DNA from: Escherichia coli
GTDB lineage: Bacteria > Pseudomonadota > Gammaproteobacteria > Enterobacterales > Enterobacteriaceae
Assembly (NCBI RefSeq): GCF_051903065.1
Contig: NZ_CP178438.1
Direction: 5' to 3' (one strand)
Length of the DNA stretch: 64,000 bases
Shown here: piece after piece, positions 3,001 through 6,000 of the stretch
Layout of the letters: each line of letters starts with the position of its first letter
Numbering within the stretch: the stretch's first letter is position 1
Position numbers: made by a program

Positions 3001-6000
3001 AATGAAGCTGTACTTTGGATTCTATCTCTTCCGGGCGGTATTGCTCTTGCATGGCAGCCAGTGGTCCTGTTTTCATTACGGCTACAAAAGTAGCGTTAGA
3101 GGTGGTTTTTCAGATCCGCATAGCATAGCCCAAACGTCCGCGTCAAAACAGCCTTTCGCGCACTCGACGTTGAAATGATGCCCGGATTATTCATACATTA
3201 ATTTACAGAGTTTGTGGGCGTATTAGCAAAGCAAGGAACAAAGAACGTCTATTATTATAGTCAGTTAACGACCCGGGAGATGAAACGATGAACAAGGTTG
3301 CTCAATATTACCGTGAACTGGTTGCGTCACTGAGCGAACGCCTGCGCAATGGCGAACGTGATATCGACGCACTGGTGGAACAGGCGCGCGAGCGCGTAAT
3401 AAAAACAGGGGAGTTAACGCGAACCGAGGTCGATGAGCTGACGCGAGCTGTCAGACGTGACCTGGAAGAGTTCGCCATGAGCTATGAAGAGAGCCTGAAA
3501 GAAGAATCTGACAGCGTCTTTATGCGGGTGATTAAAGAAAGCTTGTGGCAAGAGCTGGCAGACATCACCGATAAAACGCAGCTTGAATGGCGCGAAGTTT
3601 TCCAGGACCTCAATCATCATGGGGTTTATCACAGCGGAGAAGTGGTCGGGCTGGGAAATCTGGTCTGCGAGAAATGTCACTTCCATCTCCCGATCTACAC
3701 ACCGGAAGTGCTGACGCTATGCCCGAAATGTGGTCATGACCAGTTCCAGAGACGCCCGTTTGAGCCGTAATAGTCTGATTTCGCACAGCAATAAAGAGAA
3801 TATGGGCCGAATGAAATTCCCCGGCCCTTGTTTTTATCTCTACAGTAAATCTTCAGTCTCACGAATTTCCTGACTGACATCTCTGGTTCCGGATGACTGA
3901 ACTTTACGATACAGGTCGAGAGCCTGTCGGAGATCGACAGGTCTTCCTTCTCCGTAGTGATACATAATGGCCAGGTTATACCAGGCAGTGGCGTCATTGC
4001 ATTCAGCGGCTTTCGTAAACCATTCAAAGGCAGCCTGATAATCTTTCTCAACGCCTTGTCCGTGTTTATACATATAACCGATGTTGACGTAAGCGCCGAC
4101 GCTCCCCTGAGCGGCAGCCTTCAGATACCAGTACATCGCTTGCTTATAGTCCTGGTCCACCCCTTCGCCAGCGTTATAATCCCATGCAATTTGAAACTGA
4201 GCATGCCGATTACCCTGCTGTGCGCTTTTCAAATACCAGAATGCGGCGAGTGTCTCGTTTTGAGCAACGCCTTTTCCGTCTTCATAAAGATCGGCCAGAT
4301 TGTTTTGCGCGTCACTATGGCCTTGTAATGCAGCTTGTTTGTACCAGAAAAATGCCAGCGTATAGTCTTGTGCGATTCCGTTGCCATTTCTGTACATCCA
4401 CCCAAGATTATTTTGCGCATAAGACATTCCGCTCTCCGCGGCTATCTGATACCAGGCAACCGCTTCTTTATAGTTGGGGTCTTCTCCACGATCCAGTATC
4501 CAGCCAAGGGCGTTGGAAGCGAAAGTATGGCCTTGTAGGGCAGCTTTTTTCAGCCAGAAGATGGCTTGCTCATTATCTTTATGACGGCTTTTATCCTCGG
4601 TATACTTTTGCCCTAAGGAATACTGTGCTTCACAATGACCTTGCTCAGCGGCCAGCTTCAGCCAGTAAAAGGCCTTTTCGTCGTCCGGAGAGTCAATTGC
4701 GCTATCGCGATTATAATAAAACCCAACAATATATTGAGCCTCACTATCGCCTTGTTCAGCACGTTCGATAATCTCATCTATTGACAAATTATCGCAGCAA
4801 CTTGACGTAAAAATCATTATCATTTCCTTATGGTTGCAGATAAAGCATATTATATTTTTATGTGTTCCGTTTTTGCGTAAGTCTTATTTTATGCGTATTA
4901 TGTTGTGTCAGAAAAGTATAAATAAATGAGCCTCGTAATGTAGTTTACATTCATTAAATGAATGTTTAAGGATAAATTATATGGACATGGAGTCGCAAAA
5001 AATATTGTTTGCACTTTCCACTCCGATGGAAATACGCAATGAATGCTGTTTACCTTCGCATTCATCCCCCAAAATGTATTTAGGTACATGCTTTTTTGAC
5101 CTTTCTTCCTCCTGGGGAATTGATGACCGTGATGACCTGCTGCGCACAATTCACCGAATGATCGATAACGGTCATGCCGCGCGGTTGGCAGGGTTTTATC
5201 ACCGCTGGTTTCGTTATTCTCCATGTGAATGGCGTGACTATCTTGCTGAATTAAATGAGCAAGGTCAGGCTTATGCGCAATTTGTCGCCAGCACAGCCGA
5301 ATGCTGTGGTGAGGGAGGAATTAAAGCATGGGATTATGTCCGGATGGGTTTTTTAAGTCGAATGGGCGTACTTAATAACTGGTTGAGTGAAGAAGAAAGT
5401 CTATGGATCCAGTCGCGTATTCATCTACGGGCTCTACGTTATTATAGTAACTGGCGGCAATACTTTGCCGGTTATACCTTTGGTCGGCAATATTGGCAGT
5501 CTCCCGAAGATGATAATCTGCCTTTATTACGTGAATTCTTAGCGCGTAAAGAATACGACGATTCCGGCAATGATATGTTTTATCAATTATTTGCCAGTGA
5601 CGATGCGTATTACCCTACCTTGTCCTGGCAACCATTGGCTTACTATTCTGCATGCCCGGAAACGCTTAAGGATATGAGCGACCTATGAAAAATTGCTGGA
5701 AGATCCTCAACATAGAGGAAACGACTGACGTCGATATTATCCGCCGCGCTTATCTGGCGCTGTTACCGTCCTTTCATCCAGAAACCGATCCGCAGGGTTT
5801 TAAACAACTTCGTCAGGCGTATGAGGAGGCGCTACGGATTGCGCAGTCGCCTGCTAAATCTGTTTGGCAACCAGAAGAATATGAGGTAGCAGAACATGAA
5901 ATTCTGCTCGCCTTTCGCGCGTTACTTGCCTCTGATAGCGAACGTTTTCTGCCCTCCGCCTGGCAGCGATTCATTCAGCAATTAAATTATTGCTCGATGG

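What the first reader, a model, noticed from the sequence alone, without database searches (positions are those of the whole stretch)
3660..3770. YbeL ends in a CxxC-N17-CxxC zinc-ribbon
CEKCHFHLPIYTPEVLTLCPKCGH at the C-terminus of this DUF1451 protein suggests metal-dependent nucleic-acid or protein binding for a protein of unknown function located next to the accessory module.
Basis: seen in the sequence. Interest (0 to 1): 0.2.

Follow-up and report, generated by a model that had tools for sequence, protein, structure and literature searches.

The report
YbeL's known four-cysteine zinc ribbon
The four cysteines near the end of E. coli YbeL are real and never vary among relatives, and they almost certainly hold a structural zinc ion, but databases already label the family this way and the protein's function is still unknown.

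Summary
The window is E. coli chromosome, and the ORF at 3288-3770 (+) is ybeL (160 aa, Pfam DUF1451).

- **Motif:** the CxxC...CxxC motif is real. The cysteines are Cys127, 130, 145 and 148, at codons 3666-3731. The spacer is 14 residues, not 17, and 12 more residues follow the last cysteine.
- **Conservation:** all four cysteines and the N14 spacing are invariant in 85 diverse relatives (23-67% identity).
- **Structure:** AlphaFold models put both CxxC pairs at beta-hairpin turns of a small, confidently predicted C-terminal domain. Its nearest solved matches, though weak, are Cys4 zinc ribbons and rubredoxin-like domains.
- **Experimental hint:** a 2025 proteomics preprint found YbeL responsive to metal chelators.
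- **Already annotated:** Pfam calls DUF1451 a "Zinc-ribbon containing domain", and NCBI names the protein "zinc ribbon-containing protein".
- **Nucleic-acid binding:** I found no support. The family is acidic.
- **Accessory module:** the adjacency is incidental. The conserved neighbour is leuS, transcribed divergently, in 85 of 90 loci.
- **Side observation:** the C-terminal proline, which makes native YbeL a tmRNA-tagging target, is strongly conserved.

Verdict: correct but ordinary, low interest.

The parts
3288..3770 (+). ybeL coding sequence (160 codons plus a TAA stop), a monocistronic gene.
   Evidence: ORF list. The sequence is 100% identical to annotated ybeL, 'zinc ribbon-containing protein', and is present in 5424 of 5426 complete E. 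coli genomes. PF07295 E=7e-50; NF008261 scores 299.7 bits.
3288..3617 (+). N-terminal acidic helical domain, residues 1-110, predicted as five helices (2-20, 26-40, 45-72, 77-93, 96-110). It contains the conserved D58, D95 and E100 and the subfamily motif ITDKTQLEW (residues 93-101).
   Evidence: AF2 model; conservation; pI. Its only structural matches are generic helical bundles.
3618..3767 (+). C-terminal zinc-ribbon domain, residues 111-160. It is all-beta and carries the near-invariant Y114, G117, G123, F153 and R155 plus the four Cys.
   Evidence: pLDDT is 94-98 in the full model and 90 when the domain is modelled alone. Conservation. Ribbon-type matches.
3666..3677 (+). First zinc knuckle, C127-E-K-C130, at the end of strand 123-127.
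3720..3734 (+). Second zinc knuckle, C145-P-K-C148-G (CPxCG type), 14 residues after the first.
3762..3770 (+). C-terminal Glu159-Pro160 followed by the stop codon. This is the conserved terminal proline that makes native YbeL a tmRNA-tagging target.
   Evidence: Sequence. EP-stop is invariant in 82 loci, all Enterobacteriaceae except one more distant gammaproteobacterium (L082), while the stop codon varies. 34 of 85 diverse representatives end in Pro. Literature.
3804..3837 (.). GC-rich hairpin (GGGCCG ... CGGCCC) followed on the + strand by TTGTTTTTAT. It is a likely bidirectional terminator between the convergent genes ybeL and ybeQ.
   Evidence: The terminator scan hit it on the minus strand. 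RNA fold of the + strand. The T-run is read directly from the sequence.
3244..3279 (+). ybeL expression signals: a conserved block AACGTCTATTATTA (3244-3257, resembling a -10 element) and the Shine-Dalgarno sequence GGGAG (3275-3279).
   Evidence: Alignment of the intergenic region from 18 Enterobacteriaceae. The promoter assignment is inference only.

Best explanation
Residues ~111-160 of YbeL form a Cys4 zinc ribbon.

**The metal site.** The two CxxC knuckles (C127/C130 and C145/C148, 14 residues apart) sit at the turns of two beta-hairpins. Together they bind one metal ion tetrahedrally, most likely Zn2+. The ion staples a small beta-sheet that has too little hydrophobic core to fold alone. 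Y114 and F153 probably pack over the site. The site is therefore structural, not catalytic.

**The whole protein.** The ribbon is fused to an acidic five-helix domain. The best-conserved part of the protein is the last helix plus the ribbon, so I take that as the functional surface. It most probably docks onto a protein partner rather than onto nucleic acid.

**The gene.** ybeL is a stand-alone gene induced in stationary phase and by stress. It is held divergently next to leuS throughout Gammaproteobacteria.

**Shown here:** the motif, its invariance, the predicted fold, the family membership and the synteny.

**Taken from the literature:** chelator sensitivity, expression pattern and tmRNA tagging.

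**Inferred:** zinc as the metal, the purely structural role, and a protein partner.
For: - The motif is present and its arrangement has chance probability about 9e-5.
- The four Cys and the N14 spacing are invariant in 85 representatives at 23-67% identity. Of all 404 retrieved sequences, 352 carry the strict motif. Most of the other 52 are truncated or frameshifted fragments, and a few are single-contig full-length variants.
- In the AF2 models the ribbon has pLDDT 94-98 in context and 90 alone, with strands flanking both knuckles.
- The ribbon profile finds solved Zn(Cys)4 modules: the Bacillus adenylate kinase lid (E=0.006), the MCM zinc ribbon (0.0075), and S27e, uS14, eL43 and RPB12.
- 47 of 83 ribbon sequences give sub-threshold hits to Pfam Zn_ribbon_8.
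- Pfam and NCBIfam already name the family as zinc-ribbon containing.
- A Metal-LiP/TPP preprint lists YbeL among proteins whose structure and thermal stability change on chelation, and points to the four-Cys cluster.
Against: - No metal has been measured on purified YbeL.
- Sequence cannot tell Zn(Cys)4 from Fe(Cys)4.
- I could not read model coordinates, so the Cys-Cys geometry was not measured.
- The 'protein partner' step rests only on charge and conservation. No partner is known.
Confidence: 0.8

Rival explanations
1. The Cys4 site binds iron as a rubredoxin-like redox centre, as in the C-terminal domain of rubrerythrin, and YbeL acts in electron transfer or peroxide stress.
For: - The best Foldseek hits for the ribbon are the rubrerythrin C-terminal domain (E=0.2, prob 0.93). 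Rubredoxins and desulforedoxin also appear.
- The NCBIfam rubrerythrin model gives E=0.0027.
- JGI labels many homologues 'rubrerythrin'.
- Rubrerythrin has the same overall layout: helices followed by a Cys4 domain.
Against: - The rubrerythrin score is 17.7 bits against a cut-off of 200.
- Residues 1-108 contain no histidine, so the ExxH diiron motifs are absent.
- A full-length profile search of the PDB does not return rubrerythrin.
- The profile matches lean towards Zn ribbons.
Confidence: 0.08
2. The Zn(Cys)4 site is a thiol redox switch. Oxidation releases zinc and changes YbeL activity under stress, as described for Hsp33, RsrA and DksA (from my own knowledge of those proteins).
For: - ybeL is induced at entry to stationary phase and by acid, together with general-stress genes.
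- Its level falls together with rpoS and osmY in one mutant proteome.
- Chelation destabilises the protein.
Against: There are no data on oxidation of YbeL. Most Cys4 ribbons are purely structural. This idea can coexist with the main explanation.
Confidence: 0.1
3. The ribbon is a nucleic-acid-binding module, so YbeL is a DNA- or RNA-binding regulator, for example of the divergent leuS operon.
For: - Many zinc ribbons contact nucleic acids, including MCM, TFIIB-type factors, ribosomal proteins and Trf.
- The divergent pairing with leuS is conserved in 85 of 90 loci. Conserved divergent pairs often include a regulator (general knowledge, Korbel et al. 2004).
- R155 is near-invariant.
Against: - The family is acidic, and the ribbon itself is near neutral.
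- R155 is the only basic residue conserved across the family.
- I saw no operator-like palindrome conserved on the ybeL side of the intergenic region.
- No helix-turn-helix or other DNA-binding domain was found.
- The shared promoter region alone could preserve the adjacency.
Confidence: 0.12
4. The cysteine pattern is a chance feature with no function.
For: None, apart from a few single-contig metagenomic variants that lack one or two Cys (P0053, P0082, P0097).
Against: The chance probability is about 9e-5. The pattern is invariant across the family. The variants are singletons at about 90% identity and are most simply explained as sequencing errors.
Confidence: 0.005

Closest known systems
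Pfam PF07295 (DUF1451, 'Zinc-ribbon containing domain') / NCBIfam NF008261 'zinc ribbon-containing protein'
   Same: YbeL is a full-length member. It scores 169 bits against a 26-bit cut-off, and 299.7 against 183. The four conserved Cys are the family hallmark.
   Different: Nothing differs. The family has no assigned function and no solved structure.
Zn(Cys)4 lid module of Gram-positive adenylate kinases (e.g. 1ZIN; Pfam ADK_lid)
   Same: This is the best sequence-profile match to a solved metal site. The shared pattern is G-x-h-x-C-x-x-C-G ... C-x-x-C-G-G-x-x-F/Y-x-R, with both knuckles aligned (E=0.006). Four ribbon sequences hit ADK_lid. The zinc there is structural (my own knowledge).
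   Different: The spacer is 16 rather than 14. The module is an insert in a kinase, not a terminal domain on a helical protein. The E-value is marginal, so this is a resemblance and not a demonstrated relationship.
Rubrerythrin C-terminal rubredoxin-like domain
   Same: Helical region followed by a short-spaced Cys4 beta domain. It is the top Foldseek hit for the ribbon.
   Different: It binds Fe. Rubrerythrin's four-helix bundle carries ExxH diiron ligands, which YbeL lacks. YbeL scores far below the family cut-off.
DksA/TraR C4 zinc finger (CxxC-N17-CxxC)
   Same: A small acidic helical protein with a Cys4 site near the C-terminus.
   Different: The real spacing is N14. There is no PF01258 hit at E<=1. 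The YbeL site is all-beta, not helical.
Pfam Zn_ribbon_8 (PF09723) stand-alone zinc ribbons
   Same: This is the most frequent secondary Pfam match of the ribbon: 47 of 83 members, best E=2e-5. It shares a Y-x-C-x-x-C-G ... C-P-x-C-G pattern.
   Different: All hits are below the gathering score (YbeL itself scores 12.3 against 34.4 bits). Those proteins lack the N-terminal helical domain.

Membership tests
Pfam PF07295 DUF1451 | HMM score above the gathering cut-off over the whole model | tested here: met
   169.4 bits against 26.1. Residues 14-157 align to model positions 2-146 of 146.
Pfam PF07295 DUF1451 | Four conserved cysteines towards the C-terminus of a bacterial protein of about 160 aa | tested here: met
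   C127, C130, C145 and C148 are invariant in 85 sequences. Longer members carry no additional domains.
NCBIfam NF008261 (PRK11032) zinc ribbon-containing protein, equivalog | Score above the curated cut-off | tested here: met
   299.7 bits against 183, covering 1-160 of 160.
Zinc ribbon fold (zinc beta-ribbon superfamily) | Two CxxC zinc knuckles located at beta-hairpin turns | tested here: met
   In the AF2 models, strands 123-127 and 133-136 flank knuckle 1, and knuckle 2 precedes strand 152-156. pLDDT is 94-98. This is a prediction, not an experiment.
Zinc ribbon fold (zinc beta-ribbon superfamily) | Significant structural or sequence similarity to solved zinc ribbons | tested here: inconclusive
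Zinc ribbon fold (zinc beta-ribbon superfamily) | One metal ion bound by the four Cys | not testable with these tools
   The only support is indirect and published: chelator-dependent LiP and TPP changes. The tools did not give me model coordinates.
DksA/TraR C4-type zinc finger | CxxC-N17-CxxC spacing and a PF01258 match | tested here: not met
   The spacer is 14. PF01258 does not appear at E<=1. hhalign probability is 4%.
Rubrerythrin | Family HMM above cut-off, and ExxH diiron ligands in the helical bundle | tested here: not met
   NF045767 scores 17.7 bits against 200. Residues 1-108 contain no His.
Pfam Zn_ribbon_8 (PF09723) | HMM score above the gathering cut-off | tested here: not met
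   12.3 bits against 34.4 for YbeL. Members give sub-threshold hits only.
Known anti-phage defence proteins (PADLOC) | Significant match to a defence-system model | tested here: not met
   Only weak matches of the helical region: LeoA E=0.005 at 14 bits.

The most novel reading that the evidence does not exclude
The conserved C-terminal proline may be a built-in sensor rather than an accident.

It sits exactly 12 residues after the last Cys. EP-stop is invariant in Enterobacteriaceae whichever stop codon is used. A terminal Pro slows termination and causes tmRNA tagging of native YbeL.

YbeL abundance would then be tied to how well termination and ribosome rescue are working. Three other observations fit this: the gene is anchored beside leuS across Gammaproteobacteria, it is controlled after transcription (candidate targets of CsrA and RprA), and it is induced in stationary phase. 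Together they would make YbeL a zinc-ribbon factor linked to translation stress.
Probability: 0.1. Interest if true: 0.55.

Novelty: already known. Interest (0 to 1): 0.12.

Why it matters
It matters little as a discovery, because the zinc ribbon of YbeL/DUF1451 is already written into Pfam, NCBIfam and RefSeq annotation and was remarked on in a 2025 metalloproteomics preprint.

The check does tidy the record in four ways:
- It corrects the spacing to N14, which removes any DksA-like reading.
- It shows that the cysteines and their spacing are invariant across the family.
- It shows that the link to the ybeQ-hscC accessory module is specific to Escherichia.
- It identifies leuS as the conserved neighbour.

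YbeL remains a widespread gammaproteobacterial protein of unknown function. It is also used in practice, as a tmRNA-tagging model and as a fusion tag for membrane-protein expression. The conserved terminal proline and the leuS pairing are the most useful leads.

Tried and rejected
- **AlphaFold database.** The afdb50 Foldseek library was not available.
- **Genome scan.** The 85-sequence alignment was too diverse for the scan. The 11-sequence alignment worked, but the best 80 loci were all Enterobacteriaceae. I reached more distant contexts through exact-protein look-ups. Two of those landed on contigs too short to be useful.
- **DksA/TraR relationship.** Rejected.
- **Rubrerythrin relationship.** Rejected beyond the shape of the Cys4 domain.
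- **Domain fusions.** I looked for fusions that might hint at function. The longer homologues have only DUF1451.
- **Defence role.** Nothing significant in PADLOC.
- **Operator search.** I looked for a conserved operator-like palindrome near the ybeL promoter and found none. The promoter-like hit at 3170-3199 falls in a non-conserved stretch, so I did not adopt it.
- **Apparent N17 spacers.** Three homologues seemed to have N17. This was a regex artefact caused by an extra Cys three residues upstream, and all three have the N14 motif.

Full report
**Where we are.** The window is E. coli chromosome. The 801 bases around the finding are 100% identical to annotated chromosomes and occur in 5424 of 5426 complete E. 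coli genomes. The local gene order is leuS (minus strand, 470-3076), ybeL (plus, 3288-3770), ybeQ (minus, 3840-4823), then ybeR, djlB, ybeT, ybeU, djlC and hscC. ybeL is monocistronic. It diverges from leuS across 211 bp and converges on ybeQ. A GC-rich hairpin at 3804-3827 followed by a T-run lies between ybeL and ybeQ.

**The observation.** The ORF encodes 160 residues whose only four cysteines are C127, C130, C145 and C148, at codons 3666-3731. The quoted peptide is correct. The spacer is 14 residues, not 17, and 12 residues follow the last cysteine.
- Four cysteines placed at random in 160 residues form a CxxC-N(8-25)-CxxC pattern with probability about 9e-5.
- No other stop-free stretch of at least 100 aa in the window has such a motif.

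**Family and conservation.**
- YbeL matches Pfam PF07295 (DUF1451, described as "Zinc-ribbon containing domain") at 169 bits, and the NCBIfam equivalog NF008261 ("zinc ribbon-containing protein") at 299.7 bits.
- An exhaustive HMMER search of 1.84 billion representatives gave 382 hits.
- In an alignment of 85 intact representatives at 23-67% identity, the only invariant columns are the four cysteines, and the N14 spacing never changes. D58, D95, Y114, G117, G123, F153 and R155 are at least 90% conserved.
- Of the 404 family sequences retrieved, 352 carry the strict motif. Most of the remaining 52 are truncated or frameshifted fragments. A few are single-contig full-length variants (P0053, P0082, P0097) at about 90% identity and are most simply explained as errors.

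**Structure.**
- An AlphaFold2 model built from the 85-sequence alignment has mean pLDDT 88. It shows five helices (residues 2-110) and a C-terminal beta domain (113-156) with pLDDT 94-98.
- Knuckle 1 closes strand 123-127, and knuckle 2 precedes strand 152-156. The ribbon modelled alone gives the same strands at pLDDT 90.
- The full-length model finds only generic helical bundles in the PDB. No solved homologue exists by sequence or profile.
- The ribbon profile finds, at marginal E-values, experimentally established Zn(Cys)4 modules. These are the lid of Bacillus adenylate kinase (0.006, both knuckles and the F-x-R aligned), the MCM zinc ribbon (0.0075), McsA, S27e, uS14, eL43 and RPB12.
- 47 of 83 ribbon sequences give sub-threshold hits to Pfam Zn_ribbon_8. 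Others hit HypA, TFIIB-type ribbons and ADK_lid.
- Taken together, the fold class (Cys4 zinc ribbon or rubredoxin-like knuckles) is well supported. No single match is significant on its own.

**Published experimental hints.**
- A 2025 preprint using limited proteolysis plus thermal profiling under chelator treatment lists YbeL among proteins hit by both methods. [quoted passage not shown]
- ybeL rises 2.8-fold at entry into stationary phase, alongside bolA, dps and cspD, and about 2-fold after acid shift with other general-stress genes.
- It falls together with rpoS and osmY in one rRNA methyltransferase mutant.
- It is a proposed CsrA target and an RprA target.
- YbeL is also used as a fusion tag for membrane proteins.
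- None of these reports assigns it a function.

**What it probably does, and what it probably does not.**
- The family is acidic: median pI is 5.3 overall, 4.9 for the helical domain and 6.3 for the ribbon. R155 is the only basic residue conserved across the family. This argues against generic nucleic-acid binding.
- The most conserved stretch is the last helix plus the ribbon. I therefore read the metal site as a structural staple that shapes a docking surface, most likely for a protein.
- Iron binding (rubredoxin-like) cannot be excluded from sequence. However, YbeL is not a rubrerythrin: it scores 17.7 bits against a cut-off of 200, and residues 1-108 contain no histidine, so there are no ExxH diiron ligands.
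- It is not a DksA/TraR finger either. The spacing is N14, there is no PF01258 hit, and hhalign gives 4% probability.
- Longer homologues add no other domains, and there is no defence-system match.

**Genomic context.**
- The "accessory module" next door is not an ancestral neighbour. Among 90 loci, ybeQ appears only in four Escherichia loci.
- The start of leuS lies divergently upstream in 85 of 90 loci, 148-244 bp away in all but one. The exception is one metagenomic contig (L090) with an inserted SnoaL-like gene.
- This holds for a Photobacterium (38% identity), for another gammaproteobacterium (41%) and for metagenome genomes at about 27-30% identity.
- In Photobacterium and locus L082 the downstream neighbour is the lnt-corC-ybeY-phoH-miaB operon. 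Elsewhere it is ppk or a Lon-like gene. In one case the whole context differs.
- Named distant relatives are Gammaproteobacteria, such as Inmirania.
- The adjacency to leuS may reflect shared regulation. It may also simply reflect the cost of inserting DNA into a shared promoter region.

**Side observation.**
- YbeL ends in Glu-Pro-stop. [quoted passage not shown] The YbeL-PP variant (E159P) is a standard ribosome-arrest model.
- In 42 of 85 diverse relatives the protein ends exactly 12 residues after the last cysteine, and most of those end in proline. Overall, 34 of 85 end in proline.
- In 82 loci EP-stop is invariant while the stop codon varies among TAA, TGA and TAG.
- Selection for a residue that impairs termination is unusual and might be regulatory. 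I rate that at about 10%.

**Verdict.** It is also already the database annotation of this family. The suggested nucleic-acid binding and the link to the accessory module are not supported. I score interest low and rate the finding as already known.

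Noticed in passing
window 3762-3770 (Glu159-Pro160-TAA); loci L001-L090: The C-terminal proline of YbeL is strongly conserved. 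EP-stop is found in 82 of 90 loci regardless of stop codon. 34 of 85 diverse representatives end in Pro, almost always exactly 12 residues after the last Cys. A terminal Pro impairs termination, and native YbeL is a published tmRNA-tagging target. This may be a conserved regulatory stall.
   Followed up: partly
window 470-3770; L082, L085, L086, L088, L089, L090: The divergent leuS|ybeL pair is conserved in 85 of 90 loci, down to about 27-30% protein identity across Gammaproteobacteria. The gene downstream of ybeL varies (lnt operon, ppk, Lon-like, ybeQ).
   Followed up: partly
window 3840-~11700 (ybeQ to djlC): The ybeQ-hscC 'accessory module' is present only in Escherichia loci. It contains a tandem paralogous pair: ybeR+djlB (4981-7112) and ybeU+djlC (7778-9933). 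The Sel1/TPR genes ybeQ and ybeT sit in matching positions.
   Followed up: no
window 3081-3094 and 3108-3130 (leuS side of the intergenic region): Across 18 Enterobacteriaceae there is an invariant stem GCTAC-N4-GTAGC with a variable loop, 5 nt from the leuS start codon. There is also a 23-nt invariant block, TTTCAGATCCGCATAGCATAGCC. These are probably leuS 5'UTR and promoter elements.
   Followed up: no
window 3244-3257: A conserved block, AACGTCTATTATTA, lies upstream of ybeL. It resembles a -10 element preceded by a C, which is typical of sigma-S promoters (my inference). That would fit the published induction in stationary phase and acid.
   Followed up: no
window 3077-3287 (literature link): A published bile-salt suppressor mutation was mapped to the 'ybeL 5'UTR', yet deleting ybeL has no effect. 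The mutation lies in the promoter region shared with leuS-lptE. In Salmonella, an rlpB (= lptE) mutation is among the bile-resistant mutants. The mutation may therefore act on lptE rather than on ybeL.
   Followed up: no
L087 3931-6513: In one distant homologue's locus the DUF1451 gene lies just downstream of a dynamin-like (Dynamin_N) gene, on the same strand. PADLOC gives a weak match (E=0.005, 14 bits) between the YbeL helices and the dynamin-like protein LeoA. This is probably a compositional effect.
   Followed up: no
P0053, P0082, P0097, P0121-P0267 (database sequences): Many of the 50%-identity cluster 'representatives' for this family are frameshifted or truncated Enterobacteriaceae ybeL fragments from short metagenomic contigs. 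Three single-contig variants lack one or two of the cysteines.
   Followed up: partly
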